Of a stretch of DNA of 64,000 bases, positions 2,728 to 50,835 are shown one piece after another. The translations under genes and the position numbers were made by a program. The notes beneath the pieces were generated by a model. That model was not told the DNA's origin, searched no databases, and saw only the letters and a list, made by a program, of their open reading frames with translations. Location of the stretch: positions 93,164 through 157,163 of the forward strand of contig CAZERF010000002.1 of NCBI GenBank assembly GCA_964515375.1. Direction: 5' to 3'. Position 1 is the first letter of the stretch, and the number at the start of each line of letters is the position of its first letter. The DNA comes from an uncultured Candidatus Saccharibacteria bacterium (GTDB taxonomy: Bacteria; Patescibacteriota; Minisyncoccia; Phycocordibacterales; UBA6899).

Positions 2728-2730
2728 CAA

Positions 2731-20408: not shown

Positions 20409-20423
20409 TCATTCGAGGACTCA

Positions 20424-22833: not shown

Positions 22834-22888
22834 TCATTTGAACCACAGGGGTGCGCAATCGCGCACCCCTTTCTTTTTGGAGAGTACC

Positions 22889-27569: not shown

Positions 27570-27643
27570 TGGTGCCTATGGTGTAATGGTTAGCACTGAG
27601 GTTTGTGGAACCTCCAGCCAGGGTTCGAATCCCTGTAGGCACC
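27570..27643 (+). tRNA. tRNA-His (anticodon GTG), with encoded G-1
   Basis: GGTGCCTATGGTGTAATGGTTAGCACTGAGGTTTGTGGAACCTCCAGCCAGGGTTCGAATCCCTGTAGGCACCC. Anticodon loop TTGTGGA. Confidence 0.85.
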
Positions 27644-27722
27644 CCCGACAGAGAGACCCAAGAGGCGACCGAGAAGGGTCGCTTTTTGGTAAAGAAAGTT
27701 CTAGACTCAGTAGGTCAAAAAC

Positions 27723-28703
27723 ATGAATATCGAGGAAAGAAAAATTCTCAAAGCACTCACTGATGATAGGAGGGGGTTACTGTCCCCAGCAGATTTCGTA
27801 AACGGAATTGCGCAACACGATCGGCGGGCAGTAGAAAACCTTGTCACGGGTGGCTATGTCGAGGAGGTACCACAAGATGTTAATGGAGGTCATCGGGGAA
27901 CATATTCTATAAATTTTTATAGAGCAACAGAAAAGGGTCGAAATGTCTTTTCTCCATGGAGACAAAAAGTTTGGTTTAATCTTAAGACGGAAACCTCACT
28001 TTGGGTAGGAATCTCCTCGATCATGATTGGAGTTCTTTCAATACTTATTTCTAGCGCCGTGGCTTTTGGTGTTCCTTGGTATCAAAATGTATCAAATGAA
28101 CAAAAAGAAATTGAGGCAATTTATAAAAATCTCATTACGAATGAGGATATTCTCATATCGAACTCAAATAATGCCAGATTTCTTTTAACTGCAACAAGTG
28201 TCACTGCATTGCCGGAGTCATACCTGGAAGATGAGATCAAAGGTGATATTGGAAAAATACTTCAGGATAAGTTTGGTTTAATTCAATACAGATTTTTCGT
28301 TTATTACTTGCAGCAGATTGAACTTTTCAACTTGGAAATAGAAGAAATGAGGAACGCACTCGTTGTCGGGGGTTCAACATCAACAGCATATCTAAGTGCC
28401 CAAAAGGCGTATCTTTCAACTGTAGACGAAATAAGCAAGGAGGGGATGGATGCAAGGTTTAGTCACATAAGAGATGTTGAATGCCTTACACATTTATTTG
28501 AGCGCAATTTTGAGTATTTATCTATTGATCCGCGCGGCAAAATAGAAAAATGTTCAAATGAATCCCTTAATCGAATTTATTATAATTTTGGCTTTCTCGA
28601 GGCGGCAACACCAAGGTGGATGCTACCAGCATACAGAGACGCGCTAAATGAAAGAAGGGCGGGTTTCGGTGACACAATAATTAACATCGCCGGAGGTTAT
28701 TAG
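27723..28703 (+). CDS. Hypothetical membrane protein with an N-terminal winged-helix-like domain. AT-rich island cargo.
   Basis: ILKALTDDRRGLLSPADFVNGIAQHDRRAVENLVTGGYVEEV (wHTH-like), then the TM helix LWVGISSIMIGVLSILISSAVAFGV, then a ~200-aa C-terminal domain. Confidence 0.55.
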   Translation: MNIEERKILKALTDDRRGLLSPADFVNGIAQHDRRAVENLVTGGYVEEVPQDVNGGHRGTYSINFYRATEKGRNVFSPWRQKVWFNLKTETSLWVGISSIMIGVLSILISSAVAFGVPWYQNVSNEQKEIEAIYKNLITNEDILISNSNNARFLLTATSVTALPESYLEDEIKGDIGKILQDKFGLIQYRFFVYYLQQIELFNLEIEEMRNALVVGGSTSTAYLSAQKAYLSTVDEISKEGMDARFSHIRDVECLTHLFERNFEYLSIDPRGKIEKCSNESLNRIYYNFGFLEAATPRWMLPAYRDALNERRAGFGDTIINIAGGY

Positions 28704-28711
28704 CTACTTTC

Positions 28712-29815
28712 ATGCCTCGCTTACATAAAGTAATTTCATGGCCAAGACGCAAGTTCATTGCTTTCGTCCTCCGAAAAAGAATCGGAAAAAATAAGTGGTC
28801 TGCTCACTTGATATTTGGCTTGCTCAGCATTTTAGATTTACTTGAATTTTTGTATATAAATACACAGGACACGGGAAATTACGACCACTATATTCCAAAA
28901 TTTCTTCTTCGCCGATTTCGAATTTCCGAAAAAGGCGCACACAGTAATTCACTGTTTACCTACACACTTAAATCAAAACTTGTAGAAAGGAAAAGCATCG
29001 ACGACGTTGCGGGGGAAATTGATTTTGACGTCTCAAAAGCTAGCGGCATTCCAAGTGACTTTGTAAACAAAAAAATATTTGCTGAATTTCTTGAGCCGAT
29101 AGCATCAAGAATAATAAAGCATATAAACACTGGAAATAATGATTTAACATATCTTGAGGCTAACACCCTTGCTGTTTATATGGGCCATCAAATCACCCGA
29201 GTGCCAGCATTCAGATCGTTGCTTCTAAAAATTTTCTCGATAGGAATAAGTGATGGGCGGATACTCTATTCTGAATTTGGAGATAAGAAAGCACTCCGCG
29301 AAAAAATCGCCTTCAATTCTATTCTAATTACTTATGATCAGATTTTACGCACCAAACCACCCATTAAAGTCGATGGAGGTAAGCCGCAAGCGATAATGAT
29401 TTCTCTGCTAATTGCGCCTATTATTTCGGAAAAAATATACCGAAATAATAGTATGCATGTTATCGATATTCCTCAGGATAGTGGCAAGGAGTTTGTCATT
29501 TCAGACAACCCAGTAGTATTTATTGATTTCGAAAGAGCGACAGTTCTTCCGTTTGTTCCTTGGTGGGAAATAGGAACCCGCGATTTTTTAATAGCAATGC
29601 CAGTCTCAAGGAACAAGGCAATCATATATAGCAGAGTTAGTAGAAAACCGACAGAAACCGAACAGAACTCAATTGCCGAATTAATAAACTTTGCGCAATA
29701 TGCCTGTTCGAGAAAAGAGGTCTATTCTAACAACGAGAAAACGATATTGCTCCACCTAAATAAATACAAAACAGAGCTCGAAAAATTTCGGTTAATGTTT
29801 AGTTCTGAAGACTGA
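28712..29815 (+). CDS. DUF4238-like protein (candidate single-gene anti-phage / abortive-infection-type protein)
   Basis: The N-terminal motif NYDHYIPKFLLRRF resembles the DUF4238 HYxPQFYLRxF signature. AT-rich. Lies within the island. Confidence 0.5.
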   Translation: MPRLHKVISWPRRKFIAFVLRKRIGKNKWSAHLIFGLLSILDLLEFLYINTQDTGNYDHYIPKFLLRRFRISEKGAHSNSLFTYTLKSKLVERKSIDDVAGEIDFDVSKASGIPSDFVNKKIFAEFLEPIASRIIKHINTGNNDLTYLEANTLAVYMGHQITRVPAFRSLLLKIFSIGISDGRILYSEFGDKKALREKIAFNSILITYDQILRTKPPIKVDGGKPQAIMISLLIAPIISEKIYRNNSMHVIDIPQDSGKEFVISDNPVVFIDFERATVLPFVPWWEIGTRDFLIAMPVSRNKAIIYSRVSRKPTETEQNSIAELINFAQYACSRKEVYSNNEKTILLHLNKYKTELEKFRLMFSSED

Positions 29816-30025
29816 TTTTCTTGTCTTTGAGCACTGTCTTGTTTTTTCATGCACCCAGGAAGCCATCGCTTCTCGAGCGTCATTCCTTTTTTGAGCATGT
29901 ACCCGCCATACGTGTGTACACATTACCAGAGGGGCTTGCAATATATAGATATATGTGTGATTATAGAATCACTTTTATTAACACCGTTTCTTTATTGGAG
30001 GAAGGGAGTAGCATTGAGATTACTT

Positions 30026-32593
30026 ATGGAAACCAAACTTTTTACGACTAAGTTCGTGCGCATATTTTTTATATTAATTAGTGGTGTTTTACTCTCCTCC
30101 CAGACAGCGCTTGCTGCCGTCAGTTATAGCCAAACGGTGACACTCCAGCCCGGATGGAATATCGTTTCAACCCCACGCATTCTTGAGTCGCATAACTTCT
30201 CCATGCCAGAGACGTCTACAAATCTCAGTGTGTTCATGCTGGACGCATCGGATCCAAGTGGGTGGGCACCAATGTCTGGTGAGTTTGCGCCACTCTACGG
30301 ATATTTCATCAATAACAAGACCGCAACATCGCAGACGCTCACCTTTAATTTCAAGGCAAGCACAACCCCGAACGAGCGACTGTTCGATCGGTCATTTGCT
30401 ACTTCCGGCTGGTACTCAATTGGCGTTGCAAATCCCACTTACGCAGATCGCCAAGGTGAGGCGAACGTAGACGAGAACAATCCCTCCCAAGTATTTGATT
30501 CTGTTATTGCTTCGACAGATTTAGTCGTGGACTTTACCGATGCAGACTCGGTATTTAGCCCTGCGAGTGTTGCACTTGCTGATCCTTGGGGAGCTGCGAT
30601 TGCCACTGACGTGAACACCCTTGCTGATATTCGTGACACCAAGGGTTATGCGATCTATATAAATACTTCCGGATCACATTACATTGGATTTCAGAACGAG
30701 AGTGACGATGGTGGCACGGGTTCGGTCCCAACATATACGCCAGGCACACTAAGCATCACCAAGGCAGCAGATTCTCCTTCAGGAAATGTTATCCAGAATG
30801 GCTCAGGGGTAACACTTGGAAAATTCACATTCCAGGCGCAAGGAGAGAGACTGAAGGTTGAAAACCTCAAAGTTGCGCTAACCTCATCCGACACATCTTG
30901 GGGGAGTATTCGCAACGGCGCACTGTTTGCGAATGGTGTACAGGTAGGATCGACGAACAATATTCTTACCGCAACAGGAACGCAGTTCAATCTTGGTAGC
31001 TCCCTCATCATTGATGCTGGTCAAAGTGTCACCATCGAAGTACGCGGTGATATTTATGACAATGATGGCACTAATGATTCTTCTTCCGGAGACACCATAA
31101 AAGTCCAGTTGCTTGCCGGAACATCCAATGTCTATCGACTTACAACACTTGATTATATTTCAAGCGAGAGTAAATCTGCCAACATCGTGACAGTAGCAGA
31201 AGCGACACTTGCCCTTGCGAAATATGCGAGCTATGCAAACCAGACCATCATTGTTCCACAAACCGCATTTAAGATCGGCGAATACCGCCTTACTGCCGGA
31301 GCAGACGAGGGGGTAAATCTCGATACAATCACGCTCGCACTTGGGGGGTCGGCGACAGTTACACACCTCACCAATCTTTACGTGGTGTATGGCTCAAAGA
31401 CCTCGACCGTAAAGGCAACAGGAGCAACATCTCAGCAGTGGTCCATCAATGAGGCACTGTCGGCGAATGGCACGATGAGCATTGCGGTCTATGCAGATAT
31501 GAGCGGAAGCATTTTAAGTGCCTCGACTACGATAACCACACTGACTCTTTCGGGTACCGGACAAGGTTCTGGTAGCCCAGTCACATCGCCCGCTGTTACT
31601 GGACAAACGATCACTGCTGGCGAAGGCGTGCTCACTGGAACAGTGGATTCCTCGACCCCCATTTCTGCACTCCTTGTGGGCAACTCAATGCCAAAGGTAG
31701 CATCATTTAAATTTACCGCATCAAATGATTCTTTCACGATTACCGAACTCGCAGTAACAGCGAAAAGCGTAGCTGATGCGAGTGCAGTTACTGAGCTAGT
31801 GTTCAAAGACGGAGCGACAGAGATCAGACGTGTTTCTTACAATGGAGCTGTTGCCACTGCCACTGGTCTTAGTGTCGTGGCACAGTTCAATGCGACTAAG
31901 GTTATTGATGTGTATGCGAATCTCGGTTCTATCGGCACAGGATTTGTGGACACAGGTGCCAATGTGGGAATTACACTCACGAGTTTCAAGGCGCAAAATT
32001 CAAACGGCGTAAACACGACTCACTCAGTTAGTCTTGCAAGCAACGATTTCTACGCACACAAGACAAAACCAACACTCACAAACGTTGCGCTTCCGACCTC
32101 CGTACTATCTTCGGGCACAGTGACGATTGCAAAGGTAAACGTTACAGCAGACGCAGGAGGTACACTCGCGTGGAGGAAAATAGTATGGAATGTCGCCACA
32201 TCTTCTCCTGGAACGTTTACCGTCGGTTCTCCTGCAGTCTACGATGCAGCAAATGAGTCAACACCGCTTGCCAATGTCACCACGTCGATTGATCCGAGCA
32301 CTGGTGTTATTACCGTTACCTCAACAGTCGACCAAGAGGTGAGTGGTTCAAAGACCTATGTGCTCAAGGCAACTATTGGCGGATCGGTTCAGACTGGTGC
32401 ATCTGTTTCTACGAGCATTGCAGGAGGAGTCACATCACACAGTGTGCCAACCACGTATGCAGGGGCAGCATCGAACTCGTCCTTTGTGTGGTCCGATGAA
32501 TCAGTTGTGGGACACAGTGATACAACCACTGACTGGATGGATAACTATCTCGTGAAAAATCTTCCAACAGATTCACAGACACTCACAAAATAA
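30026..32593 (+). CDS. Large secreted Thr/Ser/Gly-rich beta-repeat surface protein (adhesin or S-layer-like)
   Basis: Signal peptide METKLFTTKFVRIFFILISGVLLSSQTALAAV. 855 aa of low-complexity repeats. The start was moved to the ATG at 30026. Confidence 0.65.
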   Translation: METKLFTTKFVRIFFILISGVLLSSQTALAAVSYSQTVTLQPGWNIVSTPRILESHNFSMPETSTNLSVFMLDASDPSGWAPMSGEFAPLYGYFINNKTATSQTLTFNFKASTTPNERLFDRSFATSGWYSIGVANPTYADRQGEANVDENNPSQVFDSVIASTDLVVDFTDADSVFSPASVALADPWGAAIATDVNTLADIRDTKGYAIYINTSGSHYIGFQNESDDGGTGSVPTYTPGTLSITKAADSPSGNVIQNGSGVTLGKFTFQAQGERLKVENLKVALTSSDTSWGSIRNGALFANGVQVGSTNNILTATGTQFNLGSSLIIDAGQSVTIEVRGDIYDNDGTNDSSSGDTIKVQLLAGTSNVYRLTTLDYISSESKSANIVTVAEATLALAKYASYANQTIIVPQTAFKIGEYRLTAGADEGVNLDTITLALGGSATVTHLTNLYVVYGSKTSTVKATGATSQQWSINEALSANGTMSIAVYADMSGSILSASTTITTLTLSGTGQGSGSPVTSPAVTGQTITAGEGVLTGTVDSSTPISALLVGNSMPKVASFKFTASNDSFTITELAVTAKSVADASAVTELVFKDGATEIRRVSYNGAVATATGLSVVAQFNATKVIDVYANLGSIGTGFVDTGANVGITLTSFKAQNSNGVNTTHSVSLASNDFYAHKTKPTLTNVALPTSVLSSGTVTIAKVNVTADAGGTLAWRKIVWNVATSSPGTFTVGSPAVYDAANESTPLANVTTSIDPSTGVITVTSTVDQEVSGSKTYVLKATIGGSVQTGASVSTSIAGGVTSHSVPTTYAGAASNSSFVWSDESVVGHSDTTTDWMDNYLVKNLPTDSQTLTK

Positions 32594-32594
32594 T

Positions 32595-33590
32595 ATGAAA
32601 AAACTCATCCTCTCTATACTTCTCATCCTTCCGCTCAGTGCATTTGCCGCACTGCCAGCATTTCCGATGTCGTTTTATGGGACTGCAACGATTAATGGCA
32701 CCCCTGCACCAGTTGGGACAATCGTTCGTGCATATTACGGAACGACACTTGCGGGGCAGGTGAGTATGAGCGAGGTCGGCATCTATGGTTACGATAATCC
32801 CACCAAACAACAGCTTCTTATCGGCGAGGGTGCCACAGCGATCCGTTTTACTGTTCAATCAAGCACTATAAATAGTGGGACTGAAACTGAAGGAACAGCA
32901 TCGCAATCACACCCCTCGTTTGTATCAGGCGATGTAGTCTCAAAAAATCTCACCTTTACATGGAGTGCTCCTGTTCCAGCACCTACGCCTGCACCATCAG
33001 GTGGCGGGGGTGGAGGTGGTGGCGGAGGGGGAGGAGGGGGCGGTGGAGGTGGATCCGCAACACTGTACGGCTGTATGGATAAAAAAGCGGTAAATTATAG
33101 CCCCATTGCTACTGTCGATAATAAAGCATGCGTTTACCCATCTGGGGTGACTGCAAGTACGACAGCACCGACACCTGCTCCAGTCACGCAGACAAGCACA
33201 GTAAAACCCGTCGGAGAGGTTGCGGGTGCATCGACCTTTATGTTCACTCGTAATCTCAATGTGGGTTCAACGGGAAACGACGTAACCGAATTACAGAAGC
33301 GACTAACTGCGGAAGGATACTATGTTGGTCCAATTACTGGGTACTTCGGTCCGCTCACTGGTGCTGGGGTGAAGAAGTATCAATCAGCACACGGACTAGA
33401 GCAGGTGGGGAACGTTGGGCCAAAGACTCGATCAATACTGAATCAGGGTGGGAGTGTGCTTGGAGCAAGCACTGTATCAACATCGGTCACGGTATTAACA
33501 CCGGAGGCTCGTGCAACGCTCATCAAGCAATTGCTCGCAATGATCATTGAGCTTCAGAAGCAACTTGCAGCACTCAAGGCGCAACAATAG
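32595..33590 (+). CDS. Secreted protein with an 18-residue poly-Gly linker and a C-terminal peptidoglycan-binding domain (PG_binding_1)
   Basis: Signal peptide MKKLILSILLILPLSAFA. The stretch FTRNLNVGSTGNDVTELQKRLTAEGYYVGPITGYFGPLTGAGVKKYQ is a canonical PGBD1. Start lies 2 nt after the previous stop. Confidence 0.7.
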   Translation: MKKLILSILLILPLSAFAALPAFPMSFYGTATINGTPAPVGTIVRAYYGTTLAGQVSMSEVGIYGYDNPTKQQLLIGEGATAIRFTVQSSTINSGTETEGTASQSHPSFVSGDVVSKNLTFTWSAPVPAPTPAPSGGGGGGGGGGGGGGGGGGSATLYGCMDKKAVNYSPIATVDNKACVYPSGVTASTTAPTPAPVTQTSTVKPVGEVAGASTFMFTRNLNVGSTGNDVTELQKRLTAEGYYVGPITGYFGPLTGAGVKKYQSAHGLEQVGNVGPKTRSILNQGGSVLGASTVSTSVTVLTPEARATLIKQLLAMIIELQKQLAALKAQQ

Positions 33591-33605
33591 AGGAGTGGTT
33601 TGCCA

Positions 33606-34925
33606 TCATTTTTCTAACGTTATCGTTTTATCCTTCAGAACGATTCGGTTTTTTAGACACCCGAGGAGTTCACGCTTCTCAATCATCGTGCCTTCTTTGA
33701 GCATATATTTTGCGTAGTTGCGCACGTCGACATCGAGGGCTTTATCGTTCTCCTTTGCTCCAAGTAGCTTCGCGCGGATTTTGTTGTATCGCGCAACCTC
33801 TCTTTCGATAATGTGGCGTGTTCCGAGTTCATCGATATCAATCTTGTCGAAAATCTCGTCGATTTGCTTGAGTAATTCCTCTTCTCGAATGAATGGGTTC
33901 TTACAGAAGTGATCTTTGTTCCTTGTGCAGTTGTAGTAGATGTAACTCCGCACTGTGCCGTCTTTGAGATTCTTGTCTTTTTCCTGTGCCGTAATTCCTG
34001 ATCCGCAGTACCCACATAGCATGAGATTGGTGAAGGTGAATTCCTGATACTGCTTTTTCGAACGGAGTTCCTCGGTGAGCTTGAGTTGAACTTTCTCGAA
34101 CAATTCCTTCGAAACAAGTGCTTCATGTTGTCCTTTGTACCAGTTTCCACTTCCGCCGGGGTATTCGAATGTCCCTGAGTATAGCGGTTGCCGCAAGATA
34201 CGATAGATAGTACTGAGCGTTAGCGATTTCCTTCCTTTTCGTACGCTCGCAAATCTGCCTTCTTTTTCCATCCAGTGATAGACCTTCCGTCCGCTCCATC
34301 GTTCGTTGCCGACCTTTTCGAACATCTGTTTGATAATCGGCCCGCGCAGGGGGTCAACGAGAATGTATCCTGCACGCCCGGGCATGCGGTCGTTGATATA
34401 TCCGGTCGGTGCGACACACGGCCACAGTCCCATCTCAACTTTTGCCCGAAGCCCGCGCTTCACATTCACGCCCTTGTTATCATTCTCGAGTTTTGCCTGT
34501 GAACACAAAATCATGAGAAGAAATTTCTCGCTCGGGCTGTTGGTGAACTTTTGACCGAACGTTCGTACTTCAATCAGTCTATGCTCGTCCATTAGGTCAA
34601 CAATTGCTCCTAGGTCACCCGCATTTCTACTTAAGCGATCTGGGTGCCACGCAAGGATGGCATTGAATTTTCCTGCCTTGAGGTCGTTAATCAACTCATT
34701 GAAGACGGGTCGTTGCCCGGTACTTTTTGCCGAGTGTGACTCACGCTTGATGTCGACCACATCGAGCCCCTCCCGTTGTGCCAACTGTAGCATCTCTTTG
34801 GCTTGGGAATCGATTGAAAGGGCTTGCTGTTCGTCCGATTCCGACGATTTTCTAGCGTATAAACAGTATCTAATCTTTGGCTCGTCAGAGCCCTCTAGCG
34901 GGTTCGAATTTTTCATACACACCAA
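33606..34925 (-). CDS. Large serine recombinase (resolvase-type catalytic domain + recombinase domain + Zn-ribbon)
   Basis: IRYCLYARKSSESDEQQALSIDSQ carries the catalytic Ser. C-terminal CGYCGS...C...C Zn-ribbon. 439 aa. Confidence 0.85.
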   Translation of the reverse strand: MVCMKNSNPLEGSDEPKIRYCLYARKSSESDEQQALSIDSQAKEMLQLAQREGLDVVDIKRESHSAKSTGQRPVFNELINDLKAGKFNAILAWHPDRLSRNAGDLGAIVDLMDEHRLIEVRTFGQKFTNSPSEKFLLMILCSQAKLENDNKGVNVKRGLRAKVEMGLWPCVAPTGYINDRMPGRAGYILVDPLRGPIIKQMFEKVGNERWSGRKVYHWMEKEGRFASVRKGRKSLTLSTIYRILRQPLYSGTFEYPGGSGNWYKGQHEALVSKELFEKVQLKLTEELRSKKQYQEFTFTNLMLCGYCGSGITAQEKDKNLKDGTVRSYIYYNCTRNKDHFCKNPFIREEELLKQIDEIFDKIDIDELGTRHIIEREVARYNKIRAKLLGAKENDKALDVDVRNYAKYMLKEGTMIEKRELLGCLKNRIVLKDKTITLEK

Positions 34926-35065
34926 TGAATGACGCTACCCTCCCAGGGAGTCCAGGAATGGCAGATAGTACGCAATAAGGGTAAATATAGTCAAAAATAT
35001 CAATCCTTGCGTAAGGATTGACAATCCTTACATAGGAGAATAGTATTTACGCATAAACAAAAACC

Positions 35066-35284
35066 ATGAAACAAGAAGAAAAGCGCGAAAGATTTAAGAG
35101 GCTCGGGACGCAACGTACAAACGCGGTGCTCCAGAAGATCAAAGTGCTCAGCAATTGTGCGAATCGGAGCGCGTATGAGTATACGGAAGAGGAGGTGAAT
35201 AAGATTTTTTCAGAGATTGAACGGCGGGTACGCGAGGCGAAGGCGAAATTCCATTTCCCGAAGACGAAAGAATTTAAACTATAA
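35066..35284 (+). CDS. Small basic hypothetical protein, first gene of the GHKL/Type III operon
   Basis: 72 aa, Lys/Arg/Glu-rich helical protein. Lies 4 nt upstream of the GHKL ATPase gene. Confidence 0.45.
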   Translation: MKQEEKRERFKRLGTQRTNAVLQKIKVLSNCANRSAYEYTEEEVNKIFSEIERRVREAKAKFHFPKTKEFKL

Positions 35285-35288
35285 AAAT

Positions 35289-37906: not shown

Positions 37907-37922
37907 TCACAAGATAAACAGC

Positions 37923-39818: not shown

Positions 39819-39820
39819 TC

Positions 39821-42766
39821 ATGAAGCTGCAATTTGATCCAAACCAGGAGTACCAGATGGATGCGGTTCGTGCATCGGTAGATCTCTTTGAGGGGCTACC
39901 GATTGAGGAGGACAGTTTTTCCGTTTCTGTGGCAAAAGAAAATTTGCCAGGGATGTTTGAGGCGCAAACTGAAGATGTGCTCGCATTTGGAAACCACACC
40001 ACTCTCCCCGACGATGAATTATTGAAGAATCTTCAGTCTGTGCAAGAACGAAATGGGATTGAGGTCACTGAGACACTTCAGAAAACAATGGGGTATCCGC
40101 AATTCTCTGTTGAGATGGAAACTGGGACAGGAAAGACCTATGTGTATCTACGCACGATCCACGAGCTCCATGCGAAGTATGGATACAGCAAGTTTGTGAT
40201 CGTGGTTCCCGGTAAGGCAATTCGCGAGGGAACACTCAAGAATTTGGAGATCACGGGAGATCACTTCCAGACTCTCTATGGAAACACGCCATTTTCGTAT
40301 GCAGTGTATGACTCAAAAAACATGAGTACTGTGCGTGACTTTGCTGTATCGCGCGGGCTCTCAATTTTGATCATCAACATTGAGGCATTTCGTAAGGATT
40401 TTGATGATGAGAATATGGATCCCGAGAGAGGTGTGCTTTTTCATCGTCCGAGCGAGAAGCTCTCCGGTCGTTCACCGCGCGAATTCTTGCAAGCAGTCCA
40501 TCCGATTGTGATTATTGATGAACCGCAGAGTGTAGACAATACTCCGATAGCAAAGAAGTCCATCTCACTCCTTAATCCTTTATTCACCCTCCGCTATTCT
40601 GCAACGCACCGTAATCCGTACAATCTCATTTATCGCCTAGATCCCATTCGTGCGTATGAGATGCGACTCGTGAAGAAGGTCGCTGTGGCCGAAGTTCTTG
40701 GATCACAAGAATCGGGGGCAGGTGCGTATATAAAACTCATTTCAGTTACCAATGATGGAGGAATTAAGGCACAGATTGAGATTGATGAGGATAACGAAAG
40801 CGGTCCGAAGCGAAAGAAGATCAAAGTGAAGGGTGGTGACGACTTGTTTGTGAAATCCAAACATAGAGATGCTTATCAGAATGGTTTTCTGGTCGGCGAG
40901 ATTGGCGCCGAACAAGGGAAGGAGTTTATTTCTTTTGAACCAAGTGGAATCACGCTCCATATTGGCGAGGCACTCGGTGGTGACGATGAGGCTATTAAGC
41001 GCCTCCAGATCAGGAAAACGATTGAAGAACATTTTGAAAAGGAACTAGAGCTTGAAGGGCGCGGAATCAAAGTGCTCTCGCTTTTCTTTCTGGATCGTGT
41101 AGCAAACTATCGTCTCTATCCCGAAGAAGGGGAAGCTGAGAAGGGTCAGTACGCCAAGTGGTTTGAGGAAGAGTATGAGCGTCTGCGTCAGACTGAGAAA
41201 TATAAGACACTGAAGCAGCCACCAGTTGAAAAGGTGCATGATGGTTATTTTGCTGAAGACAAGAGCGGCAAACTCAAAGATTCTCGCGGTGAGGGCGATA
41301 CCGCCGACGATGAATCTGCTTACAACAAGATCATGAAAGAGAAGGAGCGCCTGCTCTCTTTTGAGGAGCCCCTCAAGTTCATTTTCTCTCACTCAGCATT
41401 GCGTGAAGGATGGGACAATCCGAATGTGTTTCAGATTTGCACACTCAATCAGGCACATAACGCGATCAAAAAGCGCCAGGAAATTGGGCGTGGGATGCGC
41501 CTCCCCGTGGATCAGAGTGGGGTCCGCGTATTTGATGAGTCAATTAACAAACTCGTTGTTGTTGCGAATGAGAGTTATAAGGATTTTGCACGAAAACTCC
41601 AGACTGAATATGAAGAAGATTGTGGGGTAACATTCGGAAAGATTACTGAGAAGACATTTGTGGGACTCACATATGAAAAAGATGGCGCAGAGGTGTTGCT
41701 AAATGAAGCAACGATTGCGACAATCATCCAAACACTTCGGACATTAGGCATGATTGATGAGAATGGCAAACTCACGGATGCTTTTGATCCTACACAAGTA
41801 GGATTCACCCTGGGGCTCATGGGAGACTTGAAGGAGATTGAACTGGAGATCATTGATCGGATCAAAGAATACCAACTTGAGCGCCATATTGTGCGTCACC
41901 AAGCGAAAGGGCGCGTTAAGATCAACAAAGAAGTATTCTTGAGCCCCGATTTTGCTGAGTTGTGGAATCGTATTAAGGCAAGAACTACCTATGCGGTGAA
42001 GTTTTCCGACGACCTACTGATAACGACAATTTCGGATCGCCTGCGTGCAATGCCCGCGATCACGCTCCCTAAGGTGCAGTATGTGAAGGCTGAGTTCTCG
42101 CTGGATGATCGTGGGGTGACAACACGCGAGGTGCGAAATAGAACCGAGGAGGTGAAGCAGGACAATGCGCAGCTTCCGGACATCCTCTCGTATCTCCAAC
42201 GAGCAACGCATCTTCGGAGGAAGACGCTCGTAGATGTACTTACGCGCTCGGGGAGGCTCGCTGATTTCGCGAAAAACCCTCAAAAATTCATGGATGTGGT
42301 GGCCGAGACAATCCGCGCTGAGCTTCGCCGTCTTTCTGTTGAGGGTATTCAGTATGAGCGTGTGGCAGGCGAGGAGTATGAAATGACCCTTTTTGAGGAT
42401 CACGAGTTTTCTGCATATTTGAGCGATCTTCTCCCGTCTAAGAAGTCGGTGTACGAACGCGTTTCCTATGACTCTGATATTGAGCGTCGCTTCGCCTTGG
42501 AGTTAGAGAAGAAGGATCAGGTCAAACTCTATGTCAAACTTCCATCATGGTTTACCGTTGAGACTCCGGTGGGCAAATACAATCCCGATTGGGCGATAGT
42601 GAAGCACGGAGACGAGAAGGTGTACTTGGTCCGAGAGACGAAAGGTTCACTTGAAGCAAGCGCGCTCCGAATTTCAGAAGATCAGAAGATCAAGTGCGGC
42701 AAGAAGCACTTCGCCTCCATCGGCATGGACAACTTTGAGGTGGTAAAAGATGCGAGTGAGATATAG
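39821..42766 (+). CDS. res: Type III restriction enzyme Res subunit (SF2 helicase + C-terminal PD-(D/E)xK nuclease)
   Basis: METGTGKTYVYLRTI (Walker A), VIIDEPQ (motif II), QxxGRGxR-like region HNAIKKRQEIGRGMRL. 981 aa. Starts 3 nt after the mod stop. Confidence 0.85.
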   Translation: MKLQFDPNQEYQMDAVRASVDLFEGLPIEEDSFSVSVAKENLPGMFEAQTEDVLAFGNHTTLPDDELLKNLQSVQERNGIEVTETLQKTMGYPQFSVEMETGTGKTYVYLRTIHELHAKYGYSKFVIVVPGKAIREGTLKNLEITGDHFQTLYGNTPFSYAVYDSKNMSTVRDFAVSRGLSILIINIEAFRKDFDDENMDPERGVLFHRPSEKLSGRSPREFLQAVHPIVIIDEPQSVDNTPIAKKSISLLNPLFTLRYSATHRNPYNLIYRLDPIRAYEMRLVKKVAVAEVLGSQESGAGAYIKLISVTNDGGIKAQIEIDEDNESGPKRKKIKVKGGDDLFVKSKHRDAYQNGFLVGEIGAEQGKEFISFEPSGITLHIGEALGGDDEAIKRLQIRKTIEEHFEKELELEGRGIKVLSLFFLDRVANYRLYPEEGEAEKGQYAKWFEEEYERLRQTEKYKTLKQPPVEKVHDGYFAEDKSGKLKDSRGEGDTADDESAYNKIMKEKERLLSFEEPLKFIFSHSALREGWDNPNVFQICTLNQAHNAIKKRQEIGRGMRLPVDQSGVRVFDESINKLVVVANESYKDFARKLQTEYEEDCGVTFGKITEKTFVGLTYEKDGAEVLLNEATIATIIQTLRTLGMIDENGKLTDAFDPTQVGFTLGLMGDLKEIELEIIDRIKEYQLERHIVRHQAKGRVKINKEVFLSPDFAELWNRIKARTTYAVKFSDDLLITTISDRLRAMPAITLPKVQYVKAEFSLDDRGVTTREVRNRTEEVKQDNAQLPDILSYLQRATHLRRKTLVDVLTRSGRLADFAKNPQKFMDVVAETIRAELRRLSVEGIQYERVAGEEYEMTLFEDHEFSAYLSDLLPSKKSVYERVSYDSDIERRFALELEKKDQVKLYVKLPSWFTVETPVGKYNPDWAIVKHGDEKVYLVRETKGSLEASALRISEDQKIKCGKKHFASIGMDNFEVVKDASEI

Positions 42767-42782
42767 CACAACAACAAACACC

Positions 42783-43316
42783 CTACGTGGGGTGTTTGTT
42801 GTTCTCGCCACTCTTTTGTTTCGCCTCTTCACATTTTCTGATTTCCTCTTCCAACTTAAATACACCTGCGAGGCCGGCGTTGTGGAGCGCTCTTGATATC
42901 TCCTCCAACATATAGTCTGGAAGACGATTCTCCAGCGGGTTACTCTCATCAGTGTATCTCCATCGAGAATCGGCATAGGTGCCATGGTGATGCTTGAGCC
43001 AGAAGACAATTGCAGTCATTGCGCCATCTTTGATTTTCTTAATGAGTTGAGACTCGGCCATATCGTTGACGAGAGTTCGTCCTTCGCTGATCGCGACCGC
43101 GCTTTCCTCGGCGAAGTGCTTATCCGAATTCATCCACTTGTAGTATGTTGCACGGGCGACCCCAGCTCGCTCGCAAGCAAGCTGGATGATCGAACTCTTG
43201 CGCAGGTGCTCAAGTACTTCCTGCTTCATTTGTGCGGTGCGCTTCTCTGTCGCACCACTTGGTTGGGACACTACTTTCTTCGGTCCCCGCTTTGGTGTGT
43301 GCGGTGACCGGGTCAT
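42783..43316 (-). CDS. HTH DNA-binding protein (terminase-small-subunit / transposase-OrfA-like HTH)
   Basis: IIQLACERAGVARATYYKWMNSDKHFAE is a typical phage/IS HTH_23-type motif. Confidence 0.55.
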   Translation of the reverse strand: MTRSPHTPKRGPKKVVSQPSGATEKRTAQMKQEVLEHLRKSSIIQLACERAGVARATYYKWMNSDKHFAEESAVAISEGRTLVNDMAESQLIKKIKDGAMTAIVFWLKHHHGTYADSRWRYTDESNPLENRLPDYMLEEISRALHNAGLAGVFKLEEEIRKCEEAKQKSGENNKHPT

Positions 43317-43325
43317 ACGAGCGAA

Positions 43326-44666
43326 TTAGTTGATCTTCTTTGCCCGCACCCCGGCTGTTTTCTCCCACCGACGCAGAATCACCTCGGCATAGACGGGGGA
43401 CTTTTCCATGAGAAAGCACCGTCGTCCAAGCTTGAGTGAGGCGATGAGGGTACTTCCGCTTCCGCCAAAGGGCTCAAGAACGAGGTCTCCGCGTTTGGTG
43501 AGCACCTTGATGTATGGGATGAGGATCTCGGTCGGCTTTGTCCCAAAGATGACCCCTTGTCCTGATGACTTCTCGTCCGCGGCGATATACTCAACGAAGT
43601 CGGTCGGACAGACCTTCTTTCCTTTCTCGTACCCCTCCCACTGGGGTTTACCACTTGTCGCATAGAGGGCATTCTCGTATTCATTCTGGAAGAGACCTTC
43701 TTCTTCCTCGAGGTTGAGTCCGACATTTCCGATTGACCCCACCAATGCAATATCTTGCTTATTGAAGAACTTATACTTTGAACTAAAGCCCTGCATTCTA
43801 TTAGGGAGATGCCAAGTGATGGTATTGCGGTACTTCCAATGCTTCTCGAGCTCGTTCCATATAGTGCGGAGATTCTTTGGGTGCTCGAAGATCATGATTG
43901 AGAAATCCTCTTTCTGCACCTTCGCGACATTTGCCATCCATTTCTCGGTAAAGTCTGGTGGAAGGACGTCGGTCTCGAGGTATCGACGGTTCTTCTTCGC
44001 CCCGAATCCAGTTGTGACACCATCCTTCTGCTTCGTTTTGCCCTTTAAATAATCAAGGATATACGGAGGATCCGTCATGGTCATGTCCACTCGCTCATCG
44101 CCCATGAGGGTGAGCATGTTCGCTTCGATGGTCGAGTCCCCACACATGAGCCGGGAGCCGTTGCATTCATAGATGTCACCCTTCTGCACTTTCACTTCTG
44201 TAATCGAGAGTTTCTCGAGTTCTTTCTTGAGATCGAATTGTTCCGGCGCAGAATCAACATCGAAGATGCTATCGAGGTCTTCCGTGGTGAAGCCAATGTC
44301 TTTCAAGAAATCCTCTCCGAAATCTGCGAGCATCTTGAAGTCGAACTCCCCGAGATTCTTATTCAGTCGCACATTAAGCTCCTTCTCCTTCGCGAGGTCT
44401 GCAATCGTGATGTACACCACGGGGACTTGTTCAACGCCAAGCTCGGTCGCTGCCTTGAGTCGGAAGTGACCGCCAATGACGATGTTCTCTCGTCCGGGCG
44501 CATCGTTTGCCACGAGCGGATCTACAAAACCGAAACGCCTGATGCTCTCCTTGAGTGCGCTCATCTGCTCCGCATTCCACGTGCGCGGGTTGTATTCGCT
44601 TGGCTTGAGGCTGGTAATCGATACATAGCTGATAGATAACTTGTTCATAACAAAATAGCTAACCAT
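43326..44666 (-). CDS. ParB-like nuclease domain fused to a DNA methyltransferase (phage-type orphan N6/N4 MTase)
   Basis: N-terminal ParBc region ISITSLKPSEYNPRTWNAEQMSALKESIRRFGFVDPLV. MTase motifs DPPY (TMTDPPYILDY) and EPFGGSGSTLIA. Confidence 0.75.
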   Translation of the reverse strand: MVSYFVMNKLSISYVSITSLKPSEYNPRTWNAEQMSALKESIRRFGFVDPLVANDAPGRENIVIGGHFRLKAATELGVEQVPVVYITIADLAKEKELNVRLNKNLGEFDFKMLADFGEDFLKDIGFTTEDLDSIFDVDSAPEQFDLKKELEKLSITEVKVQKGDIYECNGSRLMCGDSTIEANMLTLMGDERVDMTMTDPPYILDYLKGKTKQKDGVTTGFGAKKNRRYLETDVLPPDFTEKWMANVAKVQKEDFSIMIFEHPKNLRTIWNELEKHWKYRNTITWHLPNRMQGFSSKYKFFNKQDIALVGSIGNVGLNLEEEEGLFQNEYENALYATSGKPQWEGYEKGKKVCPTDFVEYIAADEKSSGQGVIFGTKPTEILIPYIKVLTKRGDLVLEPFGGSGSTLIASLKLGRRCFLMEKSPVYAEVILRRWEKTAGVRAKKIN

Positions 44667-44940
44667 TAATCAATTTGGTTTCGATTTGGGGTTGAAGCGC
44701 AAACGCTATTTGGTGAGAAACAAAAAACTCCGCGACCGCGAATGACATTCTGTGCGAGCAATGCATTCGTTACTACTTGGGAGTTCTACTTAGTGAAAAA
44801 CCTATTTGGGATACTGTTTGGTTATCTTTATGGTATGCCTTTGACGCTTTTTCGCAATGGATAGTTATCCACTATTACGCTATTCGCACCGTTGTCGGTT
44901 GGAGTATGTGGAACAAGTATGTTGGCGGTACAATATAGTG

Positions 44941-45492
44941 ATGGAAGATTTACAAGCAGAATATAGAACTGCTTACCAAAACGGTGAGTATGAAAAGTGT
45001 CTCGAGCTAACAAACGTGGTACTTACCGACGATCCTATTAATTTTGACGCACTGGCTCAGAAGGGTGCGACATTAATGCGTTTAAATAGGAACAAAGATG
45101 CAATCGAAGTATTTTCCGAATCCATCAAGGTGAACAATACTGCTTACCATGTTTGGGTATTCAGGGGAGATTGTCATTACGCGTTGGCTGATTATGAAAA
45201 AGCCTTCAGTGATTATTGGGTTTCCTTACAACTTGAACCTGACAATGGTGCAGCAGTTGATAGATGTGCTCGCTGTTTGTTTCATATGGGGGACACAAAA
45301 GAAGCATTGAAATATATAAGGAAGGCAGCCGGAATAGCAGAGTCTTCAGAGCCAATGCTGGTAATGATTCACATGTTGAAACTAATGGGATTTCCAAGTT
45401 ACGCAAAGGAAGTCTATCGAATGGGTCTTAAGAAATTTCCTGAAGAAAGCGAGAGGTTCCGTGTATTTCTAGACAGAGAAATAGAAAAATAG
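44941..45492 (+). CDS. TPR-repeat protein
   Basis: Three or four TPR-like helical repeats (AYQNGEYEKCLE..., ALADYEKAFSDY...). The start was moved to the ATG at 44941. Confidence 0.5.
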   Translation: MEDLQAEYRTAYQNGEYEKCLELTNVVLTDDPINFDALAQKGATLMRLNRNKDAIEVFSESIKVNNTAYHVWVFRGDCHYALADYEKAFSDYWVSLQLEPDNGAAVDRCARCLFHMGDTKEALKYIRKAAGIAESSEPMLVMIHMLKLMGFPSYAKEVYRMGLKKFPEESERFRVFLDREIEK

Positions 45493-45823
45493 GCACAATG
45501 CGACGGTGTGTCTACTTTGTCTACTCAATTTGGTTCGAGTCCGAGTAGGGGGGGCTGATGAAGAGTCGAACTTTTTTATGAAACCCAGGTGGTGCTTGTG
45601 GGGTCTCATGAAGTGCGAGAATCGTCAGAATGAGGAGGCGGAGGCAAGAGAGGGGGTGATGATGGGGAAGTGATCTTTTGACCCCGACCGGATAGCCTCC
45701 TGTCTACTTGAAGAAGGAGCTCAAAGAACCTTGTCAGGGCCTCGCCCCCAAAGGTCGTGACTGGATTGGCACCCAACATCACAAAAGCAGAGCGTAAGCT
45801 CTGCTTTTGTTTTGATGTTGGAG

Positions 45824-45844
45824 TGCCTACAGGGATTCGAAAGA
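45824..45844 (-). repeat. Inverted copy of the tRNA-His 3'-end core (inverted att-core fragment)
   Basis: Reverse complement ctttcgaatccctgtaggcac has 19 nt matching tRNA-His 27622-27640. It sits 214 bp before attR. Confidence 0.7.
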
Positions 45845-46057
45845 CGGAGCCGGTACACAAGACGAGCGAAGCGAGTACTTGTCGGCGAGTCGGGGTCGAC
45901 AGCACTTATGAGCGAAGCGAATTAGTGACTGGTGACCGAATCCCCCTTGCATGTTTCCGTCAGGGATTCGAAGACCGCAGTGATGTTTCGTCAGCAGACG
46001 AAACCACGAGGGGCGGGCTGCGAGCTTGTCGCGCGGGGGCGAGACAAGACTTGTTGC

Positions 46058-46076
46058 CGAATCCCTGTAGGCACCC
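46058..46076 (+). repeat. attR: 19-bp direct repeat of the tRNA-His 3' end
   Basis: cgaatccctgtaggcaccc is identical to 27625-27643. Confidence 0.8.
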
Positions 46077-46137
46077 AAAATTGCACATATTTCTTAATAT
46101 GGTATACTTAAAAAATCACAATAAACCATATTAGGAT

Positions 46138-47079: not shown

Positions 47080-47344
47080 TTTCTCCAAATCCCCCTTGAT
47101 CTGTGGCCAATCAAGGGTTCTGAATACGTCCCGATGGTGGCCCAGCGAGCTTCTTGAGAAAACCCCAAAAGGGGTTTTCCCTTTTTCGCTGGGTGCCTAA
47201 GCAAGGTAACTGTTTGCCTTTTAGGGATGGAGCACAAAGACAATACCTTCCTTCTTGAGACACCACTCCTGCGGGTGAAAAATGAATAAATGCAGAAATT
47301 GGTCGCCCTTTTGTGGCGCGAACTTTTTATGGGATAGTTGAAGT

Positions 47345-47896: not shown

Positions 47897-48108
47897 CCGG
47901 ATTGGTTCGAATCCCCTTACTCCACCCGATGCAGAGACCCAAGAAGTGACCTGGAAGAGTTGTTTTTTTTGGTAAGAAAATTTCTAAACCCCAGACTGGT
48001 TCTGTTCTGTGAATGCTATCTTTCCATCATTTACAAACGTGGCGAGGCACATACGCACACGCGAAGCAGCGAATGTGTTCTTTAATTTGGAACTGGTATA
48101 CTTAAAAG

Positions 48109-48585: not shown

Positions 48586-48662
48586 TTATCGGGCACCGTT
48601 TCAGCCTCGTCCTGGCAGGTACCCCTGATGCAGAGACCTAAGAGGCAACCCGGAAGAGCTGA

Positions 48663-50654: not shown

Positions 50655-50835
50655 CAATGCAACGAAACTTAACACCGACCGAGAAGCCCTTCTGTTTACG
50701 ATAAGCAGGAGCGCAAAGAACCTTTTCGAGCCGATTATATTCCTCCAATAGCGAAGGATATGCTTTTTCTATTGGAACGAACTATTCATTGTGACCGGTG
50801 GTCGTGGTGGTTGAGCGTACCAGATCACAAAAAAA

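What the first reader, a model, noticed from the sequence alone, without database searches (positions are those of the whole stretch)
27570..46076. 18.4-kb integrated island at tRNA-His bounded by an exact 19-bp direct repeat of the tRNA 3' end, carrying a large serine recombinase
cgaatccctgtaggcaccc occurs at 27625-27643 inside tRNA-His and again at 46058-46076. The interval holds a 439-aa serine recombinase at 33606-34925 (ARKSS catalytic motif, Zn-ribbon). It also holds strongly AT-rich genes at 27723-29815, two surface/PG-binding proteins, a Type III R-M cluster, an HTH protein, a ParB-MTase fusion and a TPR protein. This is the classic signature of a site-specifically integrated element. 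Using a serine rather than tyrosine recombinase for a tRNA-3' target is unusual. The attL-proximal end carries a conserved motif reused elsewhere (next finding).
Basis: seen in the sequence. Interest (0 to 1): 0.75.

Follow-up and report, generated by a model that had tools for sequence, protein, structure and literature searches.

The report
Serine-integrase defence island at tRNA-His

Summary
The 19-mer is real: exact copies at 27626-27644 and 46058-46076, plus an inverted copy at 45821-45839. It is not the island boundary.

A metagenome contig (L007) joins tRNA-His directly to window 45775. Another contig (L095) joins the island's right end to its left end at the same 7-bp core, GGCACCC. 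The mobile unit is therefore 27645-45774 (18,130 bp, GC 0.46 against about 0.53 in the flanks).

Its only recombinase is an intact 436-aa large serine recombinase (LSR). Copies 92-93% identical sit beside the orthologous tRNA-His in two diverged relatives. In 79 related loci, 51 tRNAs lie downstream of the LSR gene and 5 upstream. The nearest is convergent in 40 of 40 loci, and tRNA identity tracks LSR clade. This is a large, apparently Patescibacterial family of tRNA-end-targeting serine integrases with short cores.

The cargo is a Type III R-M system plus accessory genes.

The 19-mer belongs to a conserved, structured ~120-nt unit, present twice in tandem. The unit stays in the empty site and recurs after tRNA-Leu and after a tmRNA gene in another genome. 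It is probably a relic attP arm of related elements. Older relic junctions extend the hotspot to about 50.8 kb.

The parts
27571..27646 (+). tRNA-His(gtg). It is the integration target and stays intact after integration.
   Evidence: ARAGORN; Rfam RF00005 at 62.1 bits.
27638..27644 (+). Common core GGCACCC at attL. It covers the acceptor 3' strand, the discriminator base and one more base.
   Evidence: 7-nt overlap of the two blastn segments of empty-site contig L007. The same 7 nt overlap in L095. att tetrad.
27645..45774 (.). The mobile island itself: 18,130 bp, GC 0.464.
   Evidence: Absent from L007, which has 100% identity on both sides. Its ends are joined in L095. GC.
27645..27715 (+). 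P' arm (element left end): CCGACAGAGAGACCCAAGAGGCGACC..., including a terminator hairpin that now ends the tRNA transcript.
   Evidence: The same arm follows tRNA-His in L098 and L096 and follows the core in L095. Repeat family D2.
27723..29815 (+). Two AT-rich cargo genes: a 326-aa protein of unknown function and a 367-aa DUF4238 protein.
   Evidence: Pfam; GC 0.38. A homologue of the 326-aa gene lies between tRNA-His and the LSR in L096.
29813..29905 (-). Frameshifted remnant of the 3' end of a second LSR gene. It marks the island as a mosaic.
   Evidence: blastn/tblastx match to the LSR 3' end of L093. Translation YMLKKGMTLEKRWLPGCMKKQ..VLKDKKISLQN* compared with YMLKEGTMIEKRELLGCLKNRIVLKDKTITLEK*.
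30014..33590 (+). Cargo: a large protein with no Pfam match (the listed ORF starts at 29849, but the true start is probably near 30014-30026) and a 331-aa PG_binding_1 protein.
   Evidence: Pfam. L097 carries the same two genes plus the LSR at 89% nt identity.
33606..34916 (-). Large serine recombinase, 436 aa: the inferred integrase.
   Evidence: PF00239 7e-22, PF07508 2e-12, PF13408 2e-9. phrog_95 integrase 7e-69. SPbeta integrase structure E 2.8e-10. Family context.
35066..35284 (+). Conserved 72-aa gene, divergent from the LSR. Candidate regulator or directionality factor (inference only).
   Evidence: Also present next to the LSR or the cassette in L093, L094 and L175. No Pfam or PHROG family.
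35289..37906 (+). GHKL-type ATPase (HATPase_c_3) and a 288-aa protein of unknown function, conserved partners of the R-M genes.
   Evidence: Pfam. Same gene order in L094, L096 and L175. No PADLOC hit.
37923..42766 (+). Type III restriction-modification system: Mod at 37923-39818 and Res at 39821-42766.
   Evidence: PADLOC MTase_III 5.4e-194 and REase_III 5.6e-292; Pfam.
42783..44666 (-). HTH protein resembling a terminase small subunit (177 aa) and a ParB-N6/N4 methyltransferase fusion (446 aa).
   Evidence: Pfam; PHROGs.
44857..45492 (+). TPR protein.
   Evidence: Pfam.
45696..45774 (+). P arm (element right end) ending in ...GGTCGTGACTGGATT + core GGCACCC (45768-45774) = attR.
   Evidence: Aligns with the L095 P arm. 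The D14 repeat recurs at 50688-50727.
45775..45841 (+). Native tRNA-His trailer. The terminator hairpin extends into a long palindrome (22-nt tRNA part plus the roughly 19-nt trailer on each arm) with an inverted copy of the tRNA 3' end (45820-45841).
   Evidence: Retained in empty-site contig L007. Inverted repeats I13 and I16.
45826..46078 (+). Two tandem structured units (45826-45956, degenerate; 45957-46078). Each is an inverted T-arm copy, then a conserved scaffold, then a direct copy of the tRNA 3' end.
   Evidence: Covariance model R1: 136 bits and 18.6 bits. Structure with compensatory pairs. Homologous units lie after tRNA-Leu(gag) at 18566-18670 and after a tmRNA gene in L175.
46138..50654 (+). 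Older, non-polymorphic part of the hotspot: SoFic-like Fic/HTH gene, NUDIX, a 158-aa protein of unknown function and a PDC-S41 (Schlafen-type helicase) gene. GC 0.43.
   Evidence: Pfam, PADLOC, GC. Present in the empty-site contig.
47897..47990 (+). Relic P-core-P' junction: GACCGGATTG + a tRNA-like 3' end + the D2 P' motif.
48600..48667 (+). Second relic junction carrying the D2 P' motif.
50688..50818 (+). Relic P arm (D14 motif ... GGTCGTGGTGGTTGAGCGTACC), followed by a trailer and terminator resembling 45775-45808. Probable outer edge of the hotspot.
   Evidence: JGI contig L010 ends at window 50766.

Best explanation
Window 27645-45774 is an 18.1-kb integrative element carrying a Type III R-M system and accessory genes. 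Its own large serine recombinase inserted it at the extreme 3' end of tRNA-His. Recombination took place between an attP (P arm ...GACTGGATT, core GGCACCC, P' arm CCGAYRCAGAGACCC...) and an attB made of the tRNA acceptor end plus its trailer.

The core is the last 7 nt of the mature-tRNA-coding region, and the element brings its own terminator, so the tRNA gene survives.

Shown:
- the empty site;
- the attP-type junction;
- the 7-bp core;
- the same LSR clade and the same P' arm at tRNA-His in two diverged genomes;
- the family-wide, oriented LSR-tRNA linkage, with target identity tracking LSR clade.

Inferred:
- the LSR is the catalyst;
- the crossover dinucleotide lies inside GGCACCC;
- excision needs a directionality factor (the 72-aa gene is only a candidate);
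- cell-to-cell transfer is passive, since no phage or conjugation genes were found.

The 19-bp repeat at 46058 belongs to older relics of related elements, namely P arms with a longer tRNA-mimic core. Those relics form a decayed tandem array reaching about 50.8 kb.
For: - Empty site: L007 1-99 equals window 27546-27644, and L007 93-3384 equals window 45768-49059. Both are 100% identical, with a 7-nt overlap.
- attP-type junction: L095 5356-5431 equals window 27713-27638, abutting L095 5425-5674, which equals window 45774-45524. L095 carries a 95%-identical LSR and no tRNA.
- The att tetrad fits position for position.
- L098 and L096 have 92-93%-identical LSRs and the same P' arm at tRNA-His, next to SpoVR, PrkA and cobA-like orthologues that are only 66-78% identical. 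The element is therefore far more conserved than the chromosome.
- Family level, 79 loci: 51 tRNAs downstream of the LSR gene and 5 upstream. The nearest tRNA is convergent in 40 of 40 loci, and 11 lie within 76-213 nt of the LSR stop codon. Of the 27 loci with at least 6 kb of downstream sequence, 22 have a tRNA.
- Elements at Gln, Arg, Glu and Asn tRNAs share a conserved P' arm.
- The tRNA target tracks LSR clade.
- No other recombinase is present in the island.
- The 7-bp core matches the 5-8 bp cores of serine integrases (PMC8092301).
- GC is 0.464 in the island and 0.537/0.518 in the flanks.
Against: - No experiment and no read-level data. The empty site rests on one Logan contig and the attP-type junction on one JGI contig. 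That junction could come from a circle or from a tandem array.
- The LSR lies 6 kb from attL here, whereas it is within about 100 nt in many relatives.
- No dyad symmetry above chance was found around the core.
- No directionality factor was identified.
- The island is a mosaic, so it may no longer be mobile as a unit.
- Exact look-ups of the LSR and TPR proteins found no other contigs.
Confidence: 0.8

Rival explanations
1. One reading: the element is 27645-46057, about 18.4 kb, bounded by the 19-bp tRNA-fragment repeat. The crossover lies in or next to the T-loop, as in classical tyrosine-integrase tDNA islands.
For: There is an exact 19-mer at both positions, where none is expected by chance. 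The repeat starts in the T-loop, a classical crossover sublocation (PMC3146451 describes a 20-bp ssrA repeat of this kind).
Against: Empty-site contig L007 retains 45775-46076, including the 19-mer. The L095 junction is at GGCACCC. No tyrosine integrase is present in the island. The 19-mer is part of a conserved unit that also occurs after tRNA-Leu and after a tmRNA gene.
Confidence: 0.04
2. The island is moved by a recombinase acting in trans, such as a tyrosine integrase elsewhere in the genome or a helper element. The LSR is a passenger: a resolvase, an invertase, or a shuffler of defence cassettes.
For: The LSR is 6 kb from attL. The cassette 72aa-GHKL-288aa-Mod-Res occurs without an LSR in L175. 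LSR-adjacent cargo differs between relatives. Serine recombinases are known neighbours of defence genes (PMC13552941, for small ones).
Against: The oriented LSR-tRNA linkage across about 40 loci, and target identity tracking LSR clade, are hard to explain for a passenger. The LSR is the only recombinase on L095. The short core is serine-type.
Confidence: 0.08
3. The L007 allele is a spontaneous deletion across a 7-bp microhomology, not a pre-integration or excised site.
For: Seven bp of identity is enough for microhomology-mediated deletion. Only one such contig was recovered.
Against: An independent contig from another metagenome (L095) has the reciprocal P-core-P' junction at exactly the same 7 bp. 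The P' arm starts at the same base after tRNA-His in L096 and L098.
Confidence: 0.04
4. The 19-mer-bearing units (inverted T-arm copy, scaffold, direct copy) are not dead relics. They are functional structured elements: a folded single-strand recombination site (as in CTXphi attP or integron attC) or a small RNA tied to t(m)RNA 3' ends.
For: Between the tRNA-His and tmRNA copies the scaffold is 83% identical, while both flanking segments are rewritten to match the neighbouring gene. RNAalifold gives a closing stem plus two hairpins, with 6 pairs changed on both sides. Units are tandem in both genomes. In all three loci a long palindrome joins the t(m)RNA 3' end to its inverted copy.
Against: There are only 3 good and 2 weak copies, from two related genomes. 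The single-sequence z-score is only -2.45. There is no Rfam family. The motif GACT(G/T)G(A/T)T(T)G before the core is shared with the LSR-element P arm, which favours a relic-attP origin. Covariation could be inherited from once-functional attP arms.
Confidence: 0.2

Closest known systems
Dehalococcoides ssrA-specific genomic islands with the serine integrase DsiB (McMurdie et al. 2011, PMC3146451)
   Same: - A large serine recombinase on the reverse strand next to attL at the 3' end of a tRNA-like gene (tmRNA).
- Tandem arrays of islands and relic repeats downstream of the target.
- A ParB-domain gene and a DNA-modification gene in the element.
- No phage or conjugation genes.
- A related module here also sits at a tmRNA gene (L175).
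   Different: - The target here is a true tRNA, and across the family many different tRNAs.
- The core of the active element is 7 bp at the acceptor end, not a 20-bp repeat starting in the T-loop.
- No DsiA-like small partner recombinase was found.
- The LSR is about 436 aa against about 540 aa.
- Sequence relationship to DsiB was not tested.
Phage and ICE large serine integrases (Bxb1, phiC31, A118, TP901-1, SPbeta SprA)
   Same: The three-domain architecture, a short common core (7 bp), and an integrase carried by the element.
   Different: The characterised ones integrate inside protein-coding genes and disrupt them (PMC8092301, PMC5704250, PMC10083194). This one uses the last bases of a tRNA gene and preserves it. 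Similarity to SPbeta integrase is only distant (E 2.8e-10). IMG/VR viral contigs gave 1 hit against 229 in metagenome contigs.
Tyrosine-integrase tDNA islands (Islander-type; PMC4383910)
   Same: A target at a tRNA 3' end, restoration of the tRNA by element sequence, hotspot accretion, and defence cargo.
   Different: There is no tyrosine recombinase. The core is 7 bp rather than a tRNA fragment of tens of bp. Islander's authors state that serine integrases were not known to target tRNA genes. TIGER later found 14 of 297 S-Int elements at t(m)RNA genes and called for experimental proof (PMC7192596).
SCCmec / Ccr serine recombinases
   Same: An LSR located centrally in a cargo island, tandem accretion at one chromosomal site, and short flanking repeats.
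   Different: The SCCmec target is the 3' end of the protein gene rlmH, and it uses a CcrA/CcrB pair. Here there is a single LSR and tRNA targets.

Membership tests
Large serine recombinase (serine integrase) | N-terminal resolvase catalytic domain with a serine nucleophile. | tested here: met
   PF00239 E 7.2e-22 over residues 22-166; motif YARKSS.
Large serine recombinase (serine integrase) | Recombinase domain plus a zinc-ribbon domain C-terminal to the catalytic domain. | tested here: met
   PF07508 1.9e-12 and PF13408 2.3e-9. Aligns to SPbeta integrase residues 26-406. phrog_95 integrase 7e-69.
Large serine recombinase (serine integrase) | Short common core between attB and attP (2 bp crossover, usually 3-12 bp of identity). 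| tested here: met
   7-bp GGCACCC shared by attB (L007), the attP-type junction (L095), attL and attR.
Large serine recombinase (serine integrase) | Minimal att sites of about 40-50 bp with imperfect dyad symmetry around the crossover. | tested here: inconclusive
   The best dyad score at the core is not above that of shuffles. The P arm of related elements mimics a tRNA 3' half.
Large serine recombinase (serine integrase) | Catalyses attP x attB integration; excision needs a directionality factor. | not testable with these tools
   Only natural-variation evidence is available: an empty site, an attP-type junction and occupied sites in three genomes.
Tyrosine-integrase tDNA island | A tyrosine recombinase gene on the island. 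| tested here: not met
   No Phage_integrase hit in any of the ORFs of 80 aa or more (plus the 72-aa gene) scanned between 27.7 and 54 kb.
Tyrosine-integrase tDNA island | A displaced tRNA fragment, forming a long direct repeat, marks the distal island end. | tested here: not met
   The 19-mer exists but lies 284 bp beyond the polymorphic boundary and is retained in the empty site.
Dehalococcoides ssrA-GI type element | A serine integrase gene on the reverse strand abutting attL at a t(m)RNA gene. | tested here: inconclusive
   True for many relatives, at 76-213 nt. In the window the LSR is 6 kb from attL, with cargo in between. Homology to DsiB was not tested.
Dehalococcoides ssrA-GI type element | A 20-bp direct repeat of the target 3' end, and a DsiA partner recombinase. 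| tested here: not met
   The active element has a 7-bp core. No second serine recombinase is present in the island. The relic units do carry 18-19-bp repeats.
Type III restriction-modification system (cargo) | A Mod methyltransferase next to a Res helicase-nuclease. | tested here: met
   PADLOC MTase_III 5.4e-194 and REase_III 5.6e-292; Pfam N6_N4_Mtase, ResIII and RE_endonuc.

The most novel reading that the evidence does not exclude
This LSR is one member of a very large, essentially undescribed clade: thousands of proteins at 56-66% identity, with the named relatives in Patescibacteria. The clade is dedicated to the 3' ends of tRNA and tmRNA genes.

Its attP carries a mimic of the tRNA 3' half next to a conserved P' arm, and that mimic is re-written when the target tRNA changes. 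On this reading the conserved structured units (inverted T-arm copy, scaffold, direct copy) found after tRNA-His, tRNA-Leu and tmRNA are working parts of the system. They could be a folded recombination site or a site that masks or marks the target, rather than debris.

That would give serine integrases a tRNA-targeting mode previously credited only to tyrosine integrases, and a partly programmable one.
Probability: 0.3. Interest if true: 0.8.

Novelty: new variant of a known kind. Interest (0 to 1): 0.62.

Why it matters
Textbook and database practice ties tRNA-gene integration to tyrosine integrases. Islander excludes serine integrases for that reason (PMC4383910), and the 14 S-Int cases found by TIGER were flagged as needing proof (PMC7192596).

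Here natural variation supplies all four att forms for one element. About 80 related loci show the same oriented tRNA linkage, with target identity following integrase phylogeny. That makes tRNA targeting by a whole serine-integrase clade directly testable with a two-plasmid assay.

It also identifies what may be the main vehicle for restriction and defence genes in small Patescibacterial genomes. For genome engineering, it offers compact (about 436 aa) integrases whose natural targets are short, highly conserved tRNA sequences.

Tried and rejected
- The genome-contig scan with SpoVR found only 67-80% relatives (Thauera, Massilia and others). It gave no close genome and no usable empty site.
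- Exact look-ups of the TPR protein and of the LSR from the MKNSN start found nothing.
- Contigs carrying the left-flank protein all stop at 27156-27542, before the tRNA, so they say nothing about occupancy.
- A search for long direct repeats of the tRNA 3' end in relatives' loci gave only chance-length matches in the 7 loci reached before the script failed (8-10 nt, apart from one 14-nt internal repeat). This fits short cores but could not define their attR.
- A dyad-symmetry scan of attP and attB found nothing above shuffles at the core.
- A multiple alignment of the four tRNA-downstream duplications was poor. Pairwise local alignment found almost nothing. The covariance model hit only the His and Leu(gag) units. 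The tRNA-Val and tRNA-Leu(cag) duplications are therefore a different kind of relic.
- Rfam at a permissive threshold found no known RNA family in the modules.
- Considered and rejected: target-site duplication by a DDE transposase (no transposase, no terminal inverted repeats); an IS110-type bridge-RNA system (no DEDD/IS110 recombinase); a prophage (no structural genes, and only 1 LSR hit in IMG/VR).

Full report
**Observation**

ARAGORN and Rfam place tRNA-His(gtg) at 27571-27646 (+). No match was expected in shuffles. A third copy, inverted with one mismatch, lies at 45821-45839.

- two AT-rich genes, one of them DUF4238;
- a large protein of unknown function and a PG_binding protein;
- a three-domain large serine recombinase (LSR) at 33606-34925(-), with the likely start MKNSN at 34916;
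- a GHKL ATPase and a 288-aa protein;
- Type III Mod (PADLOC 5e-194) and Res (6e-292);
- an HTH protein, a ParB-methyltransferase fusion and a TPR protein.

GC is 0.464 in the island against 0.537 and 0.518 in the flanks. It stays low (0.433) out to about 50.8 kb, well past the 19-mer.

**True boundaries**

Exact-protein look-ups recovered near-identical contigs from several metagenomes.

One of them, L007 (Logan SRR35539484), is an empty site. Its bases 1-99 equal window 27546-27644 and its bases 93-3384 equal window 45768-49059. Both segments are 100% identical and overlap by 7 nt, GGCACCC. A de Bruijn assembly with k well above 7 cannot create such a join by accident, so the junction was probably present in the reads.

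The island's first gene was found only in two other samples, SRR28045312 and SRR28045314. This fits occupancy polymorphism between samples.

Independently, a search for LSR relatives in metagenome contigs returned L095, whose LSR is 95% identical. In L095 the homologue of the island's left end (window 27713-27638, 87%) abuts the homologue of its right end (window 45774-45524, 70%) across the same 7 nt. L095 has no tRNA.

Laid side by side, attB, attL, attR and this P-core-P' junction form a clean tetrad around GGCACCC. The mobile unit is therefore 27645-45774 (18,130 bp).

The L095 junction could come from a circular form or from a tandem array. Either way it shows that these are the element's termini.

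**The enzyme**

The island holds no tyrosine recombinase or transposase. The LSR is full length, carries the catalytic YARKSS motif, matches the PHROG integrase family (7e-69) and aligns distantly to SPbeta integrase.

Two contigs from diverged relatives, L098 (a 250-kb contig) and L096, carry LSRs 92-93% identical to the window's. Both also carry the same P' arm immediately after the orthologous tRNA-His. Their neighbouring SpoVR, PrkA and cobA-like genes are only 66-78% identical to the window's. The element is much younger than the chromosomes it sits in.

Family-level evidence comes from 79 loci with 56-95% relatives:
- ARAGORN finds 51 tRNAs downstream of the LSR stop codon (47 of them convergent) and 5 upstream, in comparable amounts of sequence.
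- The nearest downstream tRNA is convergent in 40 of 40 loci.
- In 11 loci it lies 76-213 nt from the stop codon.
- Of the 27 loci with at least 6 kb of downstream sequence, 22 have one.

Elements at Gln, Arg, Glu and Asn tRNAs share a conserved arm, CATATGCTAAGTCAGGTGACTGAGACGCAT, directly after the tRNA. Some loci show relic junctions made of a tRNA-like fragment plus this arm. In a neighbour-joining tree the target tRNA follows LSR clade, with distinct His, Ser, Gln and Asn groups.

This is the behaviour of a site-specific integrase family, not of a passenger gene. A 7-bp core is typical of serine integrases, whereas tyrosine integrases at tRNAs use 25-76 bp (PMC8092301).

**Host and element type**

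Named relatives of the LSR, and of the window's RuvA, are Patescibacteria. IMG/VR viral contigs gave 1 hit against 229 in metagenome contigs. No capsid, tail or conjugation genes are present.

The LSR with its divergent 72-aa gene is linked to different R-M cargo in different contigs. The element is best described as an integrative, non-phage defence island.

It is also a mosaic. A frameshifted 3' remnant of a second LSR gene lies at 29813-29905. L096 has a simpler layout: tRNA-His, the 326-aa gene, the LSR, then the R-M cassette.

**What the 19-mer is**

The segment 45775-46076 stays in the empty site. It begins with the tRNA trailer, whose terminator hairpin extends into a long palindrome containing an inverted copy of the tRNA 3' end.

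After that come two tandem units (45826-45956 and 45957-46078). Each unit consists of an inverted copy of the T-loop and T-stem, a conserved scaffold, and a direct copy of the tRNA 3' end.

The same scaffold, 83% identical, occurs twice in tandem after a tmRNA gene (Rfam 72.9 bits) in another genome, L175. There both flanking segments match the tmRNA instead. It also occurs once after tRNA-Leu(gag) at 18566-18670, where the flanking segments match that tRNA.

RNAalifold predicts a closing stem plus two hairpins, with six pairs changed on both sides. There is no Rfam match.

The short motif GACT(G/T)G(A/T)T(T)G precedes the tRNA-derived core in these units. It also precedes the core in the LSR element's P arm and in a relic junction at 47897-47924 that carries a 23-nt tRNA-like core. 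I therefore read the units as P-arm-plus-core relics of related elements that carry a longer tRNA mimic. A functional role, as a folded recombination site or an RNA, is not excluded.

**The wider hotspot**

Downstream of the units lie a SoFic-like gene, NUDIX, a 158-aa gene and a PDC-S41 helicase, all on the + strand. They are separated by two further P-core-P' relics at 47897-47990 and 48600-48667. The array closes with a relic P arm at 50688-50818, followed by a trailer like the one at 45775.

This is the tandem-accretion pattern described for Dehalococcoides ssrA islands (PMC3146451). The 18.1-kb island is the newest arrival.

**Comparison with what is known**

The Islander authors state that serine integrases are not known to target tRNA genes (PMC4383910). 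TIGER later found 14 of 297 S-Int elements at t(m)RNA genes and asked for experimental proof (PMC7192596). Characterised serine integrases and serine-recombinase IMEs integrate within protein-coding genes (PMC8092301, PMC5704250). The large LSR survey does not mention tRNA at all (PMC10083194).

The closest analogue is DsiB at the Dehalococcoides tmRNA gene (PMC3146451). Full-text searches found nothing on such elements in Patescibacteria.

**Verdict**

The finding is a new variant of a known kind. Its main value is that it exposes a large tRNA-targeting serine-integrase clade with all four att forms in hand.

Confidence in the main model is 0.8. The main weaknesses are reliance on single contigs for the empty site and for the attP-type junction, and the lack of any functional test.

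Noticed in passing
window 18412-18720: tRNA-Leu(gag) is followed by a 26-nt-arm palindrome that includes its 3' end (18489-18543). Next comes a scaffold unit (18566-18670, 74.5 bits with model R1) ending in an exact 19-nt repeat of the tRNA 3' end (18641-18659). After that comes another GTGACTTGTGACC + AAGTCC fragment.
   Followed up: partly
window 15298-15357 and 15483-15542: A 60-nt direct repeat (97%) duplicates the last 55 nt of tRNA-Val(tac) 185 bp downstream of the gene, just before a terminator. It does not match the scaffold model. It looks like a displaced tDNA fragment from a mostly deleted island of another type.
   Followed up: partly
window 20252-20295 and 20404-20447: An exact 44-nt direct repeat covers the last 24 nt of tRNA-Leu(cag) plus 20 nt of trailer, with a 152-bp period. 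An inverted T-arm-like copy lies between the two copies. The covariance model does not hit it.
   Followed up: partly
L175 5343-15850 (NCBI GCA_964622275.1, CAZUMX010000008.1): The same 72aa-GHKL-288aa-Mod-Res cassette (79-81% nt) lies in an island next to a tmRNA gene, with two scaffold units and no LSR gene. The defence cassette therefore travels between t(m)RNA hotspots.
   Followed up: partly
window 29813-29905 (-): A frameshifted remnant of the last ~35 codons of a second LSR gene overlaps the nominal start of the 914-aa ORF, so that ORF's real start is probably near 30014-30026.
   Followed up: yes
window 46077-50820: Single defence-type genes (Fic, NUDIX, 158 aa, PDC-S41), all on the + strand, are separated by att-like relic junctions at 47897-47990 and 48600-48667. 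The layout resembles a cassette array.
   Followed up: partly
window 20833-25710; loci L013-L092: The PrkA-YeaH-SpoVR operon is 70-80% identical at protein level to Betaproteobacteria (Thauera, Massilia). RuvA and the LSR family point to a Patescibacterial host. This suggests either inter-phylum transfer of the operon or an unusual host. An Hcp (T6SS) gene at 50874-51410 is also unexpected for that phylum.
   Followed up: no
window 4217-5999: tRNA-Ser(tga) is followed directly by a low-GC stretch (0.39-0.41) holding a 427-aa ORF with no Pfam match (4316-5599). This may be another small island at a tRNA.
   Followed up: no
L132 16350-16520; L135 6240 and 7900; L145 3790; L165 4145: In distant relatives the conserved P' arm GCTAAGTCAGGTGACTGA also follows tRNA-like fragments that are not genes. 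In L132 this leaves a 135-nt mini-remnant between the tRNA-Gln and a second junction. The family's attP P arm appears to mimic a tRNA 3' half.
   Followed up: partly
window 27532-27546, 45845, 50766: Several independent metagenome contigs end at or near the island and hotspot boundaries: L001 and L002 at 27532 and 27542, L006 at 45845, and JGI L010 at 50766. This fits assembly-graph branching caused by strain variation at these sites.
   Followed up: no
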